This document shows, in pieces, positions 3,118 through 35,153 of a stretch of 64,000 bases of DNA (its first letter is position 1; each line of letters opens with the position of its first letter). The translations under genes and the position numbers were made by a program. This stretch comes from Candidatus Micrarchaeota archaeon (GTDB lineage: Archaea > Micrarchaeota > Micrarchaeia > Micrarchaeales > CABMGC01): positions 35,389 to 99,388 of the forward strand of contig JAJZNA010000032.1 of NCBI GenBank assembly GCA_021848065.1. Reading direction: 5' to 3'. The notes under the pieces are model-generated. The model was given only the letters and a program-made list of their open reading frames with translations, ran no database searches and had not been told where the DNA came from.

Positions 3118-3669
3118 TCATTTTTCTCTAAAAGGATAACCGCATACGCCTGCTCTTGGCGAATTTACTCGCCCTTTATATGGGTTGACATTGCGTATTA
3201 GCAGCTCTACCTCTCCTTCTGCCGGATCGACGTGTACACTCCCCAGTACATGTATTGAAAGTTCTGTGGTGGAGCCAAAATCATACTGATATCTTGCATT
3301 ATCTGCTCCTGTAAAGACCTTGTATAATTCGATGTTCATCTTTTCAGTCTTCATGCCCCATATAGGGTAATCGGAGTCTACCTCGTACCGCTTACCGTTT
3401 ATTTCAAATGCACTCATATGCCCGCAACAATCAAGCCACACTTTTCTAAGGAGTTTATCTAAGTCGCTTAGCGTTGAGCCTTTACCTGCGCAGATATCGA
3501 GCCAGTAGTTTTTATCCTTTCCTTGAACTCTTATGTAGAAATAATTTCCGGTATAATTATCGCCTGGACTTATCTCTCCTGCAGTGCATTTGCATAGGTG
3601 CTTAAGCGCACCCTGCTTAGAGACTTCGCTGTTGCATACTGCGCATGTTCCTTTTGTAGACGTATTCAA
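3118..3669 (-). CDS. pRiA4b ORF-3-like family protein (PF07929-like) with N-terminal Cys-rich segment
   Basis: Pattern STLSDLDKLLRKVWLDCCGHMSAFEINGKRYEV...ARYQYDFGSTTELSIHVLG matches the family signature (tL.dLH...W.d.HL..F.i.g..y ... YeYDFGD.WeH.i). Confidence 0.55.
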   Translation of the reverse strand: MNTSTKGTCAVCNSEVSKQGALKHLCKCTAGEISPGDNYTGNYFYIRVQGKDKNYWLDICAGKGSTLSDLDKLLRKVWLDCCGHMSAFEINGKRYEVDSDYPIWGMKTEKMNIELYKVFTGADNARYQYDFGSTTELSIHVLGSVHVDPAEGEVELLIRNVNPYKGRVNSPRAGVCGYPFREK

Positions 3670-15694: not shown

Positions 15695-16927
15695 TTACTT
15701 CCTTTCAGCTGCAATTAGCTGCCTTGCCATCTCCTCTTCCTTCAACAGCGATAATGCCCTCGGATCGCCTGGGCCTGGCCTTGGCGGCATGGTGCGTATA
15801 AGCTCTCCAGCCAGCAGGGCGTCTATCCCTGCAGCAAGGGTGACTACGTTTGCGGTGCTGTACGGCCCGTCCCAGTAATAGCCTATGTATCCTGCCTGCA
15901 GCCCGCTGCCCCTGTCGTATTTCCATATCGACTCCGAGTTCAGCATCATGAACCCTATGAACTCTGGATTGCGAGTCGCTCTGTACAGGTCTGCAAGGTT
16001 CTGTATGTATATCCCCTTGAAAGGCAGGTAGGAGAGGTCTTTGCATATGCCTTTGTATTCGCAACCGACCCCCATGAGTATGCCGTCATTGTCTGCGAAC
16101 GCAGCATCTGACGCATAGGCTACGCCCTGCGCCTTCCTTATGTAATACTGGTTGTGCGTGGCCTTGGCATAGCTGACCAATCCGCCTATCCAGAGCCCCT
16201 GCAGGTATGCCGAGTTACCCCTGTCAAAGCCGCCATGGACGTATCTGCCGTCAGATATCCTGCCATTTGCTACCATGAGGCCGCTGTGCATTAGCCAGCG
16301 GTAGGATCTCCTTGCCCAGCCGAGGTAATATTTATCCCTGTGCATGGCGTCATGTATCTGGCTCGCCAGGTCGAAGTATAGGAGATTGGTGACCGCATTC
16401 TTGTAGCTGTCCCACTGGTTCCATGTAAGCCCTCCGCCCAGGCTTGCGGACCAGCTCTGTTTCATATAGTTGAATGAGTACTCTGCCTGGTATAGGTATT
16501 GGCGTTCGTGGAAGGTGTTATACGCCATCACCCATGTCAGCCCCCACCACCCTTCATCGTCATTGTAGCCCGTAGAGATGAACCTGTTCATATTGAACGC
16601 TAGCCTCACGTCATTCTTGTATACTGGATTGTGCGTGGCCTGGTAGCCTTGCATAATTGTCTGCAATATGTTCGCGTTCTGCCACCATCCCGTGTCCCAC
16701 GACCCTGCCACAGGGCTGAACTGCTGCTGCAGTACCGAAAGCTCTGCGTCGATCTGTGCCTTGCCTGGCAGGTAGTTCACGCTGAAGTTAGACGGCCCTC
16801 CACTGCGCTGCAGGGCTATGTATGGGTAACTCGGATTTGCATGCGAGAATGCCACTACCATGGTCAGGCTTGCAGCCGCTGCCACCGCAGCGCCTCTTGC
16901 TGCAAGCTTCAGCATCCTACTTCTCAT
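15695..16927 (-). CDS. secreted glycoside hydrolase family 76-like (alpha-1,6-mannanase-like)
   Basis: Motifs WWQNANILQTIMQGY, NDDEGWWGLTWVMAY and GGGLTWNQWDSYKNAVTNLLY fit the GH76 pattern. I prefer the ATG at 16927 (MRSRMLKLAARGAAVAAAASL signal-like) over the ORF-track start at 17044. Confidence 0.6.
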   Translation of the reverse strand: MRSRMLKLAARGAAVAAAASLTMVVAFSHANPSYPYIALQRSGGPSNFSVNYLPGKAQIDAELSVLQQQFSPVAGSWDTGWWQNANILQTIMQGYQATHNPVYKNDVRLAFNMNRFISTGYNDDEGWWGLTWVMAYNTFHERQYLYQAEYSFNYMKQSWSASLGGGLTWNQWDSYKNAVTNLLYFDLASQIHDAMHRDKYYLGWARRSYRWLMHSGLMVANGRISDGRYVHGGFDRGNSAYLQGLWIGGLVSYAKATHNQYYIRKAQGVAYASDAAFADNDGILMGVGCEYKGICKDLSYLPFKGIYIQNLADLYRATRNPEFIGFMMLNSESIWKYDRGSGLQAGYIGYYWDGPYSTANVVTLAAGIDALLAGELIRTMPPRPGPGDPRALSLLKEEEMARQLIAAERK

Positions 16928-17178
16928 CCTCCCTTCCTTGGCCTGTTCATGTGCGCTTTCGTGGACTGCCTTGGCAGGCTCTCCATGCCTGATCAATGCC
17001 ACTTTGCCACCTTGCCTTCCAGGGCCTTCTCTGCCATGAAACAAGACCGCATCTCCTGATATTTATTATTGCCGTCCCTCCAGCCATCTGGCTTGTCATT
17101 GCCGCGCCATGCCCCGATCCTTTTGCCCATGCCTCGAATTAACAAAGCCAATATAATGCTTGCATTTGTAATATCTGC

Positions 17179-18009
17179 ATGCGAAGCCTGCCAAAACTGC
17201 GCAAGTTGCAGTCCGCCATGGAGTACCTCATGACCTATGGCTGGGCGATACTTATCATTGCAGTTGTGATGGTTGCACTCTTCGCCTTGGGGATATTCGA
17301 CAGTGCAAATTTTGCACCAAAAGCGCAGGCAGGCGCATGCCAAGTGGTACGCAATGTAGAATCGGTAACTCTCCAGGGCCAATGCCAAGGTGAGTTGCCC
17401 AGGTATGCCGCGGTATTCGATAGCCCGTCAAGCTATGTAAGCATACCCTATTCAGACATCGGGGGCTCGATAACATACTCAATGTGGGCAAAACCAACAT
17501 CGCCTCCCAATTCGTGGAGCCTATTCTCGTTTATGGGCACCCTGATCAGGATAAGCACCGGAAATATAATATTTTATCCAAATGTCTATACTGGAAACAG
17601 CCTAAGCATAAGTTACACAGTGCCTGTAAATGCTTGGACAAGCATAATCATAACCCAAAACGCTACAGATTCAAATATATACGTAAATGGTATCCTTGCA
17701 GGCAACAGCACAATTACAGCCCCAGTGGATACTGCCAGCTATACACAGTATATAGGCGGATATTTCGGAGCCTCCAATTGGCAAGGCCTCATATCAAATG
17801 TGCAGATCTACAACACATCCCTCTCCGCAAACGATGTGCAGCAGCTGTACCTCGAAGGCATCGGCGGCGCACCTATCGACCCCCTACACATCGTTGGCTG
17901 GTGGCCGCTAAACGGCAACGCGCAGGACTATTCGGGCAACTCCAACAACGGCAACCCTTCCAGTGTGTCGTACACCTCTTCCTGGACTTCCGGCTACACG
18001 CAGCCGTAA
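17179..18009 (+). CDS. class III signal peptide (archaeal prepilin-like) protein with LamG/concanavalin-like domain, paralog 1
   Basis: N-terminus KLQSAMEYLMTYGWAILIIAVVMVALFALG (PF04021-type motif). LamG-like core ending GLISNVQIYNTSLSANDVQQLY. Confidence 0.75.
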   Translation: MRSLPKLRKLQSAMEYLMTYGWAILIIAVVMVALFALGIFDSANFAPKAQAGACQVVRNVESVTLQGQCQGELPRYAAVFDSPSSYVSIPYSDIGGSITYSMWAKPTSPPNSWSLFSFMGTLIRISTGNIIFYPNVYTGNSLSISYTVPVNAWTSIIITQNATDSNIYVNGILAGNSTITAPVDTASYTQYIGGYFGASNWQGLISNVQIYNTSLSANDVQQLYLEGIGGAPIDPLHIVGWWPLNGNAQDYSGNSNNGNPSSVSYTSSWTSGYTQP

Positions 18010-18062
18010 ATCTGTGCAGCTATTTATTGCTTTCTGACAGAAAATAATTAGGTAGTTGTTGA

Positions 18063-18998
18063 ATGCGCAGGTTTTTGGCAGGGCTGAATGGTTTGGATGG
18101 AAAATCCAAAGCCCAGTCCGCCATGGAGTACCTCATGACCTATGGCTGGGCGATACTGATTATCGCAGTTGTGATGGTTGCACTCTTCGCACTGGGGGTA
18201 TTCAACGGTGCAAACTTCGGCCCGCGCGCAACTGCCGGCGCCTGCCAAGTCGTCAGGAATGTTGAATCGGTAACCTTGCAGGGCCAGTGCCAGGGTGAAC
18301 TGCCCATGTATGCTGCCTACTTCAACGGCCAGACCTCCAGTGTAGAGATACCTTATAGCCCGGCCCTGCAGCCTCTATCGCATTTTACATGGGCTGCATG
18401 GCTATATATCGAACCCTACCAAGGCCCTCCTCCAACAAAATACGGGTCAAGGATATATATGAACGGCGGCGGTGGCTCGAGCCAAGGGTGGGAGATAACC
18501 GTGCCCTCAAGTAACCTGGGAAGCCATGCCCCGGTCAGTGCCGGCATAGGCCTGGGCTCTTCGGAGCAGTCCCTCTCGGGAAGCGTCCCTACAGGCTCAT
18601 GGCAATTCCTTGCGATTGCTTTCAATTCTTCTGCGGGAACTGCCTCAATGTATCTCAACTCAAACACATATCCCATCGGCATTCTTAGTTTCACCCCAGG
18701 TACGGACATGAATGCGTATGTGGGCAATGTGGTGATAGGGGCTTACGGGGACTCGCCTTTCGATAACTTCAACGGTTCCATATCCAATGTGCAGATGTAC
18801 AACGCCACACTATCCGCCAATGACATATCCTCATTATACCGCGAAGGGATCGGCGGCGCACCTATCGATCCTCTGCACATCGTTGGCTGGTGGCCGCTAA
18901 ACGGCAATGCGAATGATTATTCAGGCAATTCCCATGACGGCACTTCTGCAAGCGTGTCGTACACCTCTTCCTGGACTTCCGGCTACACGCAGCCGTAA
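18063..18998 (+). CDS. class III signal peptide protein with LamG-like domain, paralog 2
   Basis: Same N- and C-terminal modules as 17179..18009, with a different central region. Confidence 0.75.
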   Translation: MRRFLAGLNGLDGKSKAQSAMEYLMTYGWAILIIAVVMVALFALGVFNGANFGPRATAGACQVVRNVESVTLQGQCQGELPMYAAYFNGQTSSVEIPYSPALQPLSHFTWAAWLYIEPYQGPPPTKYGSRIYMNGGGGSSQGWEITVPSSNLGSHAPVSAGIGLGSSEQSLSGSVPTGSWQFLAIAFNSSAGTASMYLNSNTYPIGILSFTPGTDMNAYVGNVVIGAYGDSPFDNFNGSISNVQMYNATLSANDISSLYREGIGGAPIDPLHIVGWWPLNGNANDYSGNSHDGTSASVSYTSSWTSGYTQP

Positions 18999-19051
18999 AA
19001 CCGGGCAGCTATTTATTGCTTTCTTGCAGATTATAATCGGGTAGTTATCTA

Positions 19052-19939
19052 ATGCGCAGGCTTTGGGCAGTGATGAATGATTCGCATGCAAAATTCAAGA
19101 CCCAGTCCGCCATGGAGTACCTCATGACCTATGGCTGGGCGATACTCATCATTGCGGTCGTAATGGTAGCTCTCTTCGCACTGGGCGTATTCAACGGCTC
19201 AAACTTTGGCCCACGCGCAACCCCAGGCGCCTGCCAGGTCGTCAGGAACGCAGAATCCGTAACCCTTCAGGGCCAGTGCCAGGGTGAGCTCCCGATGTAC
19301 GCCGCCTATTTCAGTGCTCAAAGCGGTCAAAGCGCAGTTACAATATCGACCCCTAGCGTGGAGAGCGCCATCGGCTCAGGGTTTTCAGAAAGCGCATGGA
19401 TATACGACATGGCATCACCTACCTCAAGGAACGATATAGTCAGCGCTTACGGCACATACCTCAATCTCCAAGGTTCACAACTATGCTTCTGGGTGAGCGG
19501 CGTAAATACGAAATACCTGTGCTCAGGAAGCACTGGCGTATCGCAGAATACCTGGTCATTTGTAGCAGCAACGTACTCAAACGGCGCAGAAACAGTGTAC
19601 ATAGATGGCCAGGCTGCGGCAAACACTCTCCTTTCCGGCACACCAACCGGCGGGGCCGTGCCTGCGACTATAGGCGAATGCGGTTACTGTGGCAGCGTCC
19701 ACTTTTCCTTCCTTGGTTATATAAGCAACGTGCAGATGTACAACACAACCCTATCTGCGAACGACATCAATGCATTATATCATGAGGGCATCGGCGGCGC
19801 ACCTATCGACCCCCTGCACATCGTTGGCTGGTGGCCGCTAAACGGCAACGCGCAGGACTATTCGGGCAACTCCAACAACGGCCAGGAGACGAGTATAAGC
19901 TATACGAGCAGCTGGACTTCCGGCTACACGGTGCCATAG
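19052..19939 (+). CDS. class III signal peptide protein with LamG-like domain, paralog 3
   Basis: Same N- and C-terminal modules as the other two paralogs, with a different central region. Confidence 0.75.
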   Translation: MRRLWAVMNDSHAKFKTQSAMEYLMTYGWAILIIAVVMVALFALGVFNGSNFGPRATPGACQVVRNAESVTLQGQCQGELPMYAAYFSAQSGQSAVTISTPSVESAIGSGFSESAWIYDMASPTSRNDIVSAYGTYLNLQGSQLCFWVSGVNTKYLCSGSTGVSQNTWSFVAATYSNGAETVYIDGQAAANTLLSGTPTGGAVPATIGECGYCGSVHFSFLGYISNVQMYNTTLSANDINALYHEGIGGAPIDPLHIVGWWPLNGNAQDYSGNSNNGQETSISYTSSWTSGYTVP

Positions 19940-20381: not shown

Positions 20382-20551
20382 GCTGCAAGTGCCAGTAGCC
20401 ATGGCCTTTCCAGCAACGTGCTTGCGCTCAGGTTTAAATAGGAGAAATATCCAGCCATTTTTGTGATTAGATGGCTGCTATAAGGGCTGCAAAAAGGCCG
20501 GTTACAGATTAGGCATTCCTTGCCTCTGTAAAAAGGGAAGGCGACACATTA

Positions 20552-33728: not shown

Positions 33729-35153
33729 TTATTTCCCTAGTGCCTTCTGCCCTAGTACCCTTATCTCATACCCCTTTCCTGCAATCTTCCTTATTCCCGA
33801 CTCAACTCCCCTGTCATTTGTTACGAACACCAATCCATATCCTGCCCCTCTTGCCTTCTCAATGCACTTGAGTATCTCCTCCTTCCTTGCATTTGTCTGC
33901 ACCTCGTATGCCTTTATGCTCCTCCTGTCCCACGCGCCCTTTCTCCTTGCCCTCTCCATCCCCACAACATCGAAGCTCTCCTTCTCCCTCCCTACGAACG
34001 CATACTCTCCCCTCTCCTGCAGCTCCTTTATCACCTTCTTCATGAGCATCCTGTGCGTCTCCGAGCCTGCATGCTCTCCCTGTTTCTCTATCATCCTATC
34101 GGGATCTACTGTTTCCAGCGCCCTTCCCGTGAGCCTGCCTCCCTTCAGGTATCCCTCGTTCATAAGCCTCTGCCTTATCGGCACTATTCCTGCGCCCCCG
34201 TACAGGGTCCTTGCACTCGTTATCCACTTCCTCTCCCTGCATATCCTCCCAGCCTCCTCTACATTCCCTGCGGCCATGTGCATTGCAAGCATGTACAGGT
34301 ATACGCTTACAGAAGGCACGTCCTCTCCTGCAAGCCTTGGCGCCTTTGCACCTGCATCATATCTCTTCCCTCCATCAGCCTCCTTCACGTCAATCCTTCC
34401 TGCCTTATCCTCCAGCTCCCTCCTCTCCTCCCTTCCTATGACATCTATCTCCACGTACGCCGGGTTCGGCCTCCCTGCCTGCACCGCCCTCTGGTCGAAC
34501 ATGAACGCGCTGCCTATCGGCATCCTGTAGAGTATGTCTTTCTCTATGCCAGACATGTTCAGCATCGCATGCACCCTGTGCTGCAGCGCAGGTTCATGGT
34601 ATCCGAGCACGAACTTGACTGCGGTATTGCCCACTATCGCATCCGGCACGTCCTGGAGCAGCTGCGTTGCCGCTATTATCCCGAATCCGTACTTCCTTCC
34701 CTCCCTGACGACCCTTGTTATGTTGGTCTCCTTCCCGTAGTAGTTTAGCAGCGCCTGGTACGCATCGTCCAGCGCGATGTACAGCCTTATCTCCCTGCTC
34801 TGCCTGAACTCTTCTATTATCCTCTGCACTATGGTGTAGGTCACCAGCTTCTTTTCCGCATCTGTAAGTTCATGCATGTCCACCACATTGCACCTCTCTT
34901 CATACCCCTTCCAGAACCCCTCCGGCTCATCCCCGAATATCTCCGAGGCCTGCCTGAGCTTGTTGGTTATGTACGTAAGCTGCAGCTTCGTCTCCTTGTA
35001 CCTCTCCTCCGGCATCTGCGCAAGCAGCACGCCGTGCAGCATCTCCATGTTCGGCTCCCTTCCCTGCGCGTATAATCCTGTCAACGTCTCCCTCACCTTC
35101 TGCGCCTGCATCTCCGTCAGGTTCAGCCCCATCTGCAGCAGCTCCGCCGCCAC
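33729..35153 (-). CDS. HerA/FtsK-VirB4-type ATPase, C-terminal part (Walker B, RecA-like core end, PD-(D/E)xK-like tail)
   Basis: Contains RLYIALDDAYQAL (Walker B-like) and REGRKYGFGIIAATQLLQDVP. The tail FDVVGME...IKAYEVQT resembles a D...E-x-K nuclease-like motif. It continues the upstream ORF after a frameshift. Confidence 0.6.
   Translation of the reverse strand: MAAELLQMGLNLTEMQAQKVRETLTGLYAQGREPNMEMLHGVLLAQMPEERYKETKLQLTYITNKLRQASEIFGDEPEGFWKGYEERCNVVDMHELTDAEKKLVTYTIVQRIIEEFRQSREIRLYIALDDAYQALLNYYGKETNITRVVREGRKYGFGIIAATQLLQDVPDAIVGNTAVKFVLGYHEPALQHRVHAMLNMSGIEKDILYRMPIGSAFMFDQRAVQAGRPNPAYVEIDVIGREERRELEDKAGRIDVKEADGGKRYDAGAKAPRLAGEDVPSVSVYLYMLAMHMAAGNVEEAGRICRERKWITSARTLYGGAGIVPIRQRLMNEGYLKGGRLTGRALETVDPDRMIEKQGEHAGSETHRMLMKKVIKELQERGEYAFVGREKESFDVVGMERARRKGAWDRRSIKAYEVQTNARKEEILKCIEKARGAGYGLVFVTNDRGVESGIRKIAGKGYEIRVLGQKALGK

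What the first reader, a model, noticed from the sequence alone, without database searches (positions are those of the whole stretch)
17179..19939. Tandem triplet of pilin-like LamG genes with conserved ends, variable cores and patchwork identity
All three genes share a 44-nt identical stretch (cagtccgccatggagtacctcatgacctatggctgggcgatact) and about 85 conserved N-terminal residues. They also share a conserved ~70-aa C-terminus (ISNVQ.YN..LSAND...LY.EGIGGAPIDPLHIVGWWPLNGNA.DYSGNS). Their central 120-150 aa are essentially unrelated.

Identity is mosaic:
- Genes 1 and 3 are identical, apart from one base, over about 90 nt (tcggcggcgcacctatcgaccccct.cacatcgttggctggtggccgctaaacggcaacgcgcaggactattcgggcaactccaacaacgg).
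- Gene 2 shares its last ~45 nt and the following intergenic stretch gcagctatttattgctttct with gene 1.

This is the signature of gene conversion maintaining the constant ends of a cassette family whose lectin-like cores diversify. That would fit surface-filament subunits with alternative binding specificities.
Basis: seen in the sequence. Interest (0 to 1): 0.6.

Follow-up and report, generated by a model that had tools for sequence, protein, structure and literature searches.

The report
Recombining lectin-headed pilin genes, Micrarchaeota
Three neighbouring genes of a tiny symbiotic archaeon (Micrarchaeota) encode pilus-type surface proteins with one shared stem and three very different sugar-binding-type heads; short DNA patches copied between the genes keep the stem-coding ends alike, which is real but belongs to a large gene family that has already been noticed.

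Summary
Window 17179-19939 holds three complete + strand genes (276, 311 and 295 aa). Each has a prepilin-like leader and hydrophobic helix, a Laminin_G_3 jelly-roll and a conserved 72-aa C-terminus.

They belong to a family of at least 17 full-length copies in this 1.2 Mb Micrarchaeota genome. The family is present in all 41 related genomes searched.

- **Recombination in the ends.** Two tracts are significant after correction for all pairs: genes 1/3 (96 nt, one mismatch) and genes 1/2 (45 nt up to the stop codon). PHI and AU tests also reject a single history.
- **Ends versus cores.** Across 61 members from five genomes, the ends cluster by genome and the cores do not. Some cores have well-supported partners in other genomes. 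So the ends evolve in concert around an old repertoire of cores.
- **Selection also acts.** Synonymous divergence in the ends is high (pS 0.4-0.6 in the triplet), so protein-level selection contributes to their conservation.
- **Not a cassette switch.** Every copy is a complete gene, and no reverse transcriptase was found.
- **The C-terminal tail** is the first two strands of a LamG module, which makes the domain a circular permutation.

The LamG expansion in Micrarchaeota and lectin-type modular pilins are both published. This scan has reported the same pattern in other genomes. Function is inferred, and read and transcript data were unavailable.

The parts
17179..18009 (+). Gene 1 (276 aa). 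Leader 17179-17208, constant N-terminal part (helix plus Cys-Cys hairpin) 17209-17403, variable LamG core 17404-17790, constant C-terminal part 17791-18009.
   Evidence: ORF. PF13385 E 8e-21. Boundaries. AF2 mean pLDDT 88.7: helix 13-36, jelly-roll, tail strands 238-242, 259-261 and 264-266 at pLDDT 94-95.
18010..18062 (+). Spacer 1. It holds the family-specific module GCAGCTATTTATTGCTTTCT (18016-18035) followed by ..AGGTAGTTGTTGA before the ATG. It is a putative archaeal TATA-like promoter plus ribosome-binding site for gene 2; this is inferred from the pattern only.
   Evidence: The 11-mer YTATTTATTGY occurs 12 times in the genome, 7 of them directly upstream of family genes.
18063..18998 (+). 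Gene 2 (311 aa). Leader 18063-18113, constant N-terminal part 18114-18308, variable core 18309-18779, constant C-terminal part 18780-18998.
   Evidence: (PF13385 E 3e-15).
18999..19051 (+). Spacer 2, with the same module (19005-19024).
19052..19939 (+). Gene 3 (295 aa). Leader 19052-19102, constant N-terminal part 19103-19297, variable core 19298-19720, constant C-terminal part 19721-19939.
   Evidence: (PF13385 E 4e-17). In the AF2 model the core has pLDDT above 90 but the tail is low.
17209..17252 (+). The 44-nt stretch identical in all three genes (also at 18114-18157 and 19103-19146). It encodes QSAMEYLMTYGWAIL, the start of the mature protein, and uses a codon set specific to the triplet (TCC GCC .. 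CTC .. ACC .. GGC).
   Evidence: Permutation p=0.011 and 0.038.
17857..17952 (+). Conversion tract shared by genes 1 and 3 (equals 19787-19882): 96 nt with one mismatch. Gene 2 differs at about 8 synonymous sites over the same stretch.
   Evidence: The run covers 37-41 polymorphic sites, global p<0.0005.
17965..18035 (+). Tract shared by genes 1 and 2. The last 45 nt of the coding sequence are identical (equals 18954-18998), and the spacer motif follows both genes.
   Evidence: The run covers 29-34 polymorphic sites, global p=0.001-0.002.
17790..18324 (+). Junction repeat. The unit 'C-terminal constant part + spacer + leader + N-terminal constant part' recurs at 18779-19313 (536 nt, 83% identity). 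The constant DNA is therefore continuous across gene boundaries and alternates with unique cores.
   Evidence: blastn.

Best explanation
The triplet is a local array of a large Micrarchaeota family of modular, type-IV-pilin-like surface proteins.

**What each gene encodes (inferred from sequence and models)**
- A short basic leader, probably cut before Gln+1 by the genome's single A24 prepilin peptidase.
- A hydrophobic helix of about 25 residues with Glu at +5. This helix would anchor the protein in the membrane or a filament. The filament would be assembled by one of the genome's two type IV pilus ATPase loci.
- A small disulfide-stapled hairpin.
- A LamG jelly-roll head.
- A 52-aa C-terminal tail made of strands beta1-beta2 of a LamG module, which folds back to complete the head. 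The domain is therefore circularly permuted.

**What the conserved and variable parts do (inferred)**
- The conserved N- and C-terminal parts would form the common assembly and structural frame.
- The hypervariable core (15-32% identity between any two paralogs) would give each copy its own ligand-binding surface, probably for host-cell glycans.

**How the family evolves (shown)**
- The constant ends, together with the spacer between genes, form a continuous junction repeat of about 540 nt.
- These junctions exchange short patches by gene conversion between copies of the same genome.
- As a result the ends evolve in concert and cluster by genome.
- The cores are an old repertoire. Some have well-supported partners in other genomes.
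- Purifying selection on the protein also keeps the ends constant.

Processing, filament incorporation and glycan binding are all inferred, not shown.
For: **Architecture**
- PF13385 matches all three genes.
- The N-terminal motif [KR]-x|Q-S-A-M-E-Y-L is followed by 20+ hydrophobic residues in 17 paralogs.
- The same Q[ST][SA][VM]EYL motif occurs in the pilin-like ORF next to the ATPase on contig C9.
- AF2 predicts a helix, a hairpin and a jelly-roll. Foldseek and HMM searches hit LamG and pentraxin lectin folds.

**Machinery**
- The genome has one Peptidase_A24 match and two T2SSE ATPase matches.

**Tail as beta1-beta2**
- The geometry is constant in all 18 single-module copies: end motif, +34 aa, W, +36 aa, stop.
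- The same motif opens internal modules of the giant multi-LamG proteins, 48 aa before the Pfam domain start.
- In the gene 1 model the tail has pLDDT 94-95 and forms strands.

**Family size**
- At least 17 full-length copies in this genome.
- Matches in 41 of 41 related genomes and 3073 database hits.

**Recombination**
- GENECONV-type tracts.
- PHI test: p=0.004 (N-terminal part), 0.048 (C-terminal part), <0.001 (both joined).
- AU tests: p=1e-5 and 1.6e-4.
- N- and C-terminal partners differ. C6_6656 and C6_4817 are 93% identical in the N part but 63% in the C part.
- Codon haplotypes are specific to each cluster.
- In relative G030, two adjacent genes share an identical block of about 650 nt with a sharp breakpoint at the N/core border.

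**Concerted ends and old cores**
- The nearest neighbour lies in the same genome for 49/61 (N part), 48/61 (C part) and 19/61 (core); chance gives 13.
- Genome-label changes on the tree: 12 for the ends against 35 when shuffled; 35 for the cores against 35.5 when shuffled.
- Cross-genome core clades have SH-aLRT 99.

**Selection**
- pN is 0.03-0.16 against pS 0.40-0.59 in the ends.
Against: - No profile recognises the N-terminus as a pilin. PF04021 gives no hit on this family, and neither Pfam nor PDB matches the first 81 residues.
- The -1 residue before Gln is A, L, I or T, not the canonical G or A.
- No pilus machinery gene lies near the triplet. The neighbours are a GH76 glycosidase and small ORFs without family matches.
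- The gene 3 AF2 model leaves the tail at pLDDT 28-60, so folding back of the tail rests on one of two models.
- Clustering of the ends by genome at protein level could partly reflect co-adaptation to each genome's own machinery.
- Core pS is uninformative because the cores are close to unalignable.
- There are no expression, proteomic or population data.
Confidence: 0.68

Rival explanations
1. Plain tandem duplication followed by divergence, with no recombination. The ends are alike only because selection keeps them alike. The cores differ because they are free to drift or are under positive selection.
For: High synonymous divergence in the ends shows that purifying selection is strong (pS 0.4-0.6 in the triplet, 0.73-0.76 family median). 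In both the N- and C-part trees the three genes are each other's nearest relatives.
Against: - Two globally significant identity tracts.
- PHI p<0.001 on the joined ends.
- The N and C data each reject the other's tree.
- Core types are shared across genomes while the ends cluster by genome.
- A sharp block boundary in G030.
Confidence: 0.07
2. A programmed antigenic- or phase-variation system of the Neisseria pilE/pilS type. One expressed locus would be rewritten from silent cassettes.
For: The constant ends flanking variable middles, and the detectable conversion tracts, resemble such systems on the surface.
Against: - All 17 copies are complete, with a start codon, leader and N-terminus.
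- Most copies have their own upstream spacer module.
- In this genome the tracts lie in the constant ends, not in the variable part.
- Three assemblies from different samples are identical, with no sign of switching.
Confidence: 0.04
3. The proteins use a class III signal peptide only for export and surface anchoring. Known examples are the Sulfolobus sugar-binding proteins of the 'bindosome' (from my own knowledge of that system). On this view they form a surface lectin layer or short stubs, not pilus subunits.
For: The triplet is not linked to any pilus machinery genes. The head is large for a shaft subunit. No pilin profile matches the N-terminus.
Against: The N-terminal motif is the same as in the pilin-like ORF next to the pilus ATPase on C9. 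Giant multi-LamG proteins with the same module sit in the pilus locus on C22. The family's near-invariant helix with Glu+5 is typical of assembled subunits.
Confidence: 0.2
4. The cores are hypervariable because a diversity-generating retroelement or similar targeted mutagenesis acts on them.
For: From my own knowledge, such retroelements are described as common in DPANN and CPR genomes and often target lectin-type folds.
Against: No RVT_1 match in the genome, which is 93% complete. The cores differ by indels and throughout their length (15-32% identity), not by point changes in a short region copied from a template. Core types are shared across distant genomes.
Confidence: 0.01

Closest known systems
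Expansion of LamG-like jelly-roll proteins in 'Ca. Mancarchaeum acidiphilum' Mia14 and other Micrarchaeota/DPANN (Golyshina et al. 2017, PMC5498576)
   Same: It is the same lineage and the same domain. That paper reports an expansion of the family, with some copies linked to type IV pili loci and genomic islands, and proposes a role in host-cell contact. It also reports one FlaK-like peptidase and two pilus systems, matching what searches find in this genome.
   Different: In the passages I read, the paper does not describe the pilin-type N-terminus of the single-module copies, the constant C-terminal tail or permutation, or the concerted evolution of the ends around old cores.
Bacterial modular type IV pilins with a lectin module: Streptococcus sanguinis PilC, and the 'pilin + PF13385' architecture catalogued by Raynaud et al. 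2021 (PMC8179133) and Shahin et al. 2023 (PMC9934059)
   Same: A class III signal peptide and pilin helix is fused to a ConA/LamG-type lectin module. PilC is a minor, probably tip-located pilin that binds host glycans. This is the best functional analogue.
   Different: The system here is archaeal, with a very reduced pilin moiety (helix plus hairpin) and a circularly permuted LamG. There are 17 or more paralogs per 1.2 Mb genome, not one. There is no sequence relationship outside the fold, and glycan binding is untested here.
[quoted passage not shown] 2013, as cited in Makarova et al. 2016, PMC4858521)
   Same: Several paralogous archaeal pilins, encoded away from the machinery, share a conserved hydrophobic N-terminus and serve one assembly system.
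   Different: Those pilins are small, have no lectin head and have no conserved C-terminal module. Gene conversion between them was not tested here.
Neisseria pilE/pilS gene-conversion antigenic variation (from my own knowledge)
   Same: A pilin gene family in which gene conversion occurs between copies that share constant segments.
   Different: The Neisseria donors are silent, 5'-truncated and promoterless, and the variable part is what gets rewritten. Here every copy is a complete gene, and in this genome the detected tracts lie in the constant ends.

Membership tests
Laminin_G_3 (PF13385), ConA-like lectin/glucanase superfamily | Match to the Pfam model above its gathering score. | tested here: met
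   75.2, 57.1 and 63.1 bits against a cut-off of 27.6. The PDB profile search hits LamG-type domains. Foldseek hits pentraxin/LamG folds with probability 1.00.
Laminin_G_3 (PF13385), ConA-like lectin/glucanase superfamily | Canonical strand order, with beta1-beta2 (W.l.g...D.SGn.n.G) preceding the FdG strand. | tested here: not met
   The beta1-beta2 motif lies at the C-terminus, 34 aa after the last-strand motif and 36 aa before the stop, in all 18 copies. In the multi-LamG proteins it lies 48 aa before the Pfam start. The gene 1 AF2 model packs the tail as strands at pLDDT 94-95. The domain is therefore a circular permutant.
Archaeal type IV pilin-like proteins (class III signal peptide) | A short charged leader, a cleavage motif, then a hydrophobic helix of about 20 residues with a conserved acidic residue near +5. 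| tested here: met
   By inspection of 17 paralogs: leaders of 10-17 aa end in [KR]-[ALIT], followed by QSAMEYLMTYGWAILII.. with E at +5. AF2 predicts helix 13-36 in gene 1 and 20-44 in gene 3. The -1 residue is not always G or A.
Archaeal type IV pilin-like proteins (class III signal peptide) | Recognition by a curated pilin or class III signal profile (PF04021), or similarity to a solved pilin. | tested here: not met
   PF04021 hits only the C9 pilin-like ORF (22 bits, below the cut-off) and no family member. There is no Pfam or PDB hit for the first 74-81 residues.
Archaeal type IV pilin-like proteins (class III signal peptide) | A prepilin peptidase and an assembly ATPase present in the genome. 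| tested here: met
   Peptidase_A24 at C21:73244-73573 (37.9 bits). T2SSE at C9:41932 and C22:90083. None is near the triplet.
Archaeal type IV pilin-like proteins (class III signal peptide) | Processing by the peptidase and incorporation into a filament. | not testable with these tools
   This needs N-terminal proteomics, a processing assay, or cryo-EM or cryo-ET.
Modular type IV pilins (Raynaud et al. 2021) | An N-terminal pilin module fused to a functional module not specific to pilus biology. | tested here: met
   The pilin-like N-terminus plus PF13385 is one of the frequent bacterial architectures listed in PMC8179133. The bacterial IPR012902 motif was not tested and is not expected in archaea.
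Silent-cassette antigenic variation (pilE/pilS type) | One expression locus plus truncated, promoterless donor copies. | tested here: not met
   All 17 copies have a start codon, leader and N-terminus. The only truncated copies are a remnant at C19:34604-34855 and copies cut by contig ends.
Diversity-generating retroelement targets | A reverse transcriptase plus a template repeat matching a short variable region. | tested here: not met
   No RVT_1 match in the genome. The cores differ over their whole length and by indels.

The most novel reading that the evidence does not exclude
The continuous junction (constant C-end + spacer/promoter + leader + constant N-end) might act as a portable frame that lets a lineage-wide, ancient repertoire of lectin cores be moved between gene copies, and possibly between strains or species. 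On this reading, a host-dependent archaeon with a 1.2 Mb genome re-equips its attachment proteins by homologous exchange of whole heads.

In addition, the orphan beta1-beta2 tail could complete the jelly-roll of a neighbouring subunit, a domain-swap or donor-strand link, and not its own.
Probability: 0.12. Interest if true: 0.7.

Novelty: new variant of a known kind. Interest (0 to 1): 0.4.

Why it matters
Micrarchaeota and other DPANN archaea depend on contact with host cells, yet the molecules that recognise the host are not known. A family that takes up about 1.5% of a 1.2 Mb genome is an obvious candidate for host recognition and for differences in host range between strains. It puts many unrelated lectin-type heads on one conserved pilin-like frame. 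The evolutionary pattern found here, concerted ends around an old shared stock of cores, points to which part of the protein is the assembly frame and which part meets the ligand. It also gives concrete constructs for binding and structural work. The recombination mechanism itself is ordinary.

Tried and rejected
- **Population and transcript evidence.** Three other assemblies that carry the triplet are 99.97-100% identical and so carry no information on variation.
- **dN/dS on orthologous cores.** The same-genus genomes are far too distant; the neighbouring GH76 protein is only 34-38% identical. G053 against G030 gives only 64-77% nt identity on fragments. The protein database holds nothing between 58% and 100% identity to gene 3. 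Selection on the cores could therefore not be measured.
- **Core pS values.** They are 0.75-0.88, which reflects saturation or misalignment, so I did not use them as evidence.
- **Gene 1 core against 150 genomes of the order.** There was no match above 36% identity.
- **Bacterial promoter and terminator scan.** It gave nothing above shuffled sequence and does not apply to archaea.
- **Pilin profile and structure searches of the N-terminus.** No hit.
- **Retroelement explanation.** No reverse transcriptase was found.
- **Assembly chimera.** Rejected, because the identical tracts (96 nt or less) are shorter than the k-mer size named in the contig labels (k141) and three independent assemblies agree.
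- **N-terminal GENECONV tracts.** None survives the correction for all pairs. In the N part the recombination signal comes from the PHI test, the AU test and the codon haplotypes.
Full report
**1. What is there**

Window 17179-19939 holds three complete + strand ORFs of 276, 311 and 295 aa, separated by 53-nt spacers. All three match Pfam Laminin_G_3 well above its cut-off.
- The 44-nt stretch occurs exactly three times, with none expected by chance.
- Each gene has four parts:
  - a leader of 10-17 aa;
  - a constant N-terminal part of 65 aa;
  - a core of 129-157 aa;
  - a constant C-terminal part of 72 aa.
- Genes 1 and 3 share 96 nt with one mismatch (17857-17952 = 19787-19882).
- Genes 1 and 2 share their last 45 nt and the spacer motif GCAGCTATTTATTGCTTTCT.
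- The constant DNA runs across gene boundaries. The unit 'C-end + spacer + leader + N-end' at 17790-18324 recurs at 18779-19313 with 83% identity.
- Three assemblies from other samples carry the same triplet at 99.97-100% identity, so the mosaic is not an assembly artefact.

**2. Context**

The window is part of a 1.2 Mb, 35-contig genome, 93% complete. Names attached to homologues place it in the Micrarchaeota.
- The triplet is a small part of a family of at least 17 full-length copies in this genome:
  - five in tandem, in inverted orientation, on the same contig just before the window starts;
  - three on contig C6;
  - single copies elsewhere, several of them at contig ends, so the true number is probably higher.
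- All 41 related genomes searched have 7-58 matches each. The protein database holds 3073 hits.
- The neighbours of the triplet are a divergently oriented GH76 glycosidase and small ORFs without family matches. No pilus machinery lies nearby.
- Elsewhere the genome has one A24 prepilin peptidase and two type IV pilus ATPases. This matches what was published for the cultured relative Mia14.

**3. Protein anatomy**

- *N-terminus.* Every copy has a short basic leader ending in [KR]-[ALIT]. QSAMEYLMTYGWAILII.. follows, with Gln at +1, Glu at +5 and more than 20 hydrophobic residues.
  - The same Q[ST][SA][VM]EYL motif opens the pilin-like ORF next to the ATPase on contig C9, which nearly reaches the PF04021 cut-off.
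  - No profile or solved structure recognises the family's own N-terminus. 'Pilin-like' therefore rests on the motif, the predicted helix and the presence of the machinery.
- *Fold.* AF2 predicts a long N-terminal helix, a hairpin between two invariant cysteines, and a jelly-roll. The fold matches LamG, pentraxin and lectin-type domains.
- *C-terminal tail.* The tail EGIGGAPI...VGWWPLNGNA.DYSGN.NNG...V.YTS.WTSGY..P is the most conserved part of the family.
  - Its geometry is fixed in all 18 single-module copies.
  - In the genome's giant multi-LamG proteins the same motif opens each internal module, 48 aa before the Pfam domain begins.
  - The tail is therefore beta1-beta2 of a LamG module placed after the last strand, which is a circular permutation.
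  - AF2 packs the tail confidently onto the domain in gene 1 (pLDDT 94-95) but not in gene 3 (pLDDT 28-60).

**4. Is it gene conversion?**

Several independent tests agree that the ends recombine.
The gene 1/3 tract has global p<0.0005 and the gene 1/2 tract 0.001-0.002.
- *PHI test.* p=0.004 for the N part, 0.048 for the C part and <0.001 for both joined.
- *Different histories for the two ends.* C6_6656 and C6_4817 are 93% identical in the N part but 63% in the C part. Each data set rejects the other's tree (AU p=1e-5 and 1.6e-4).
- *Codon haplotypes.* Synonymous codons in the conserved first 15 codons vary freely across the family but are uniform within each tandem cluster.
- *Relatives.* Arrays in related genomes show the same anatomy. 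In G030, two adjacent genes share an identical block of about 650 nt (core plus C-end), with a sharp breakpoint exactly at the N/core border, although their N-terminal parts are only 63% identical.

**5. Conversion is not the whole story**

- In the triplet the ends have pS 0.40-0.59 with pN 0.03-0.16. Across the 17 copies the median pS is 0.73-0.76.
- The amino-acid conservation of the ends is therefore mainly due to purifying selection. Conversion is patchy and not frequent enough to erase synonymous differences.

**6. Concerted ends, old cores**

I collected 61 members from five genomes.
- *Identity.* Within a genome the N and C parts are 85% and 68% identical (medians). Between genomes they are 62% and 60%. 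The cores are 21% and 20%.
- *Nearest neighbours.* The nearest neighbour lies in the same genome for 49/61 (N), 48/61 (C) and only 19/61 (core), where chance gives 13.
- *Trees.* On the ends tree the genome label changes 12 times, against 35 when shuffled (minimum 29). On the core tree it changes 35 times, against 35.5 when shuffled.
- *Cross-genome cores.* Several core clades that span genomes have SH-aLRT 99. Gene 3's core is 42% identical to a G030 core and at most 32% to any paralog in its own genome. The ends of that pair are only 51-54% identical.
- *Reading.* The cores are an old stock that predates the divergence of these genomes. The ends have been homogenised within each genome. Co-adaptation of the ends to each genome's own machinery could add to the protein-level signal, but the nucleotide tracts show that real exchange occurs.

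**7. What it is not**

- It is not a silent-cassette switch. All copies are complete, and most have a family-specific upstream spacer. The 11-mer YTATTTATTGY occurs 12 times in the genome, 7 of them directly upstream of family genes. Reading that spacer as a TATA-like promoter plus ribosome-binding site is pattern-based inference.
- It is not a retroelement target. No reverse transcriptase was found, and the cores differ by indels along their whole length.

**8. Comparison with what is known**

- The LamG expansion in Micrarchaeota, its partial linkage to pilus loci and a proposed host-contact role were published for Mia14 (PMC5498576).
- Bacterial 'modular pilins' with a PF13385 lectin module are catalogued, and S. 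sanguinis PilC is a proven glycan-binding minor pilin (PMC8179133, PMC9934059).
- Earlier reports of this scan describe the same family pattern in other Micrarchaeota and CPR genomes. I reached my reading before seeing those, and it agrees with them.
- What this analysis adds is threefold:
  - a formal test for this locus;
  - the five-genome contrast between ends and cores;
  - sequence plus one confident model for the permuted tail.

**9. Limits**

- Function (processing, assembly, glycan binding) is inferred.
- Selection on the cores could not be measured because no close relatives exist in the collections.

Noticed in passing
window 20426-20427 (G000:C19:55814): In two assemblies from other samples the sequence departs from the window right after position 20426. 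It continues into a repeat that matches the ends of contigs C28, C9 and C21 of this genome at 98-100% identity. This is probably a multi-copy insertion sequence present at this site in some populations.
   Followed up: partly
window 15695-17044 (-): A 449-aa GH76 (alpha-1,6-mannanase family) protein with an N-terminal hydrophobic segment lies divergently next to gene 1. Only 3 of 12 same-genus genomes have a homologue, at 34-38% identity. The locus therefore looks like accessory, glycan-related surface equipment.
   Followed up: partly
G000:C19:29915-34855, just before the window start: Five more family genes lie in tandem on the opposite strand, plus a C-terminal remnant with an in-frame TGA at 34604-34855. 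Together with the triplet they form inverted repeats about 18 kb apart, which could mediate inversion of the segment between them.
   Followed up: no
L049 (G030:C3, genes at locus positions 3281 and 4209): Two adjacent family genes share an identical block of about 650 nt (core plus C-end) that begins sharply at the N/core border. Their N-terminal parts are 63% identical and their flanks are unrelated. This is the clearest case of a whole head being copied between different frames.
   Followed up: yes
L042 (G032:C1:583628-590410): Four family genes sit in tandem with a period of 1974 bp. Three are identical, and the first differs only in its N-terminal part. This looks like a very recent amplification.
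   Followed up: partly
window 17791-18009, 18780-18998, 19721-19939: The C-terminal tail is beta1-beta2 of a LamG module, so the domain is circularly permuted. AF2 packs it with pLDDT 94-95 in gene 1 but leaves it at 28-60 in gene 3, using the same set of 118 sequences with a different one placed first. A link to a neighbouring subunit is not excluded.
   Followed up: partly
contig ends C2:192, C10:8078-8914, C19:102784-102949, C9:42946-43989: Several family or pilin-like genes are cut by contig ends. The assembly evidently breaks at these repeats, so the copy number of 17 is a lower bound.
   Followed up: no
window 18016-18035 and 19005-19024; five other places in the genome: The spacer 11-mer YTATTTATTGY occurs 12 times in 1.2 Mb, 7 of them directly upstream of family genes. 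Gene 1 has a different upstream type (..aatataat..), which it shares with C19_31805 and C6_5723. This suggests at least two promoter classes within the family.
   Followed up: partly
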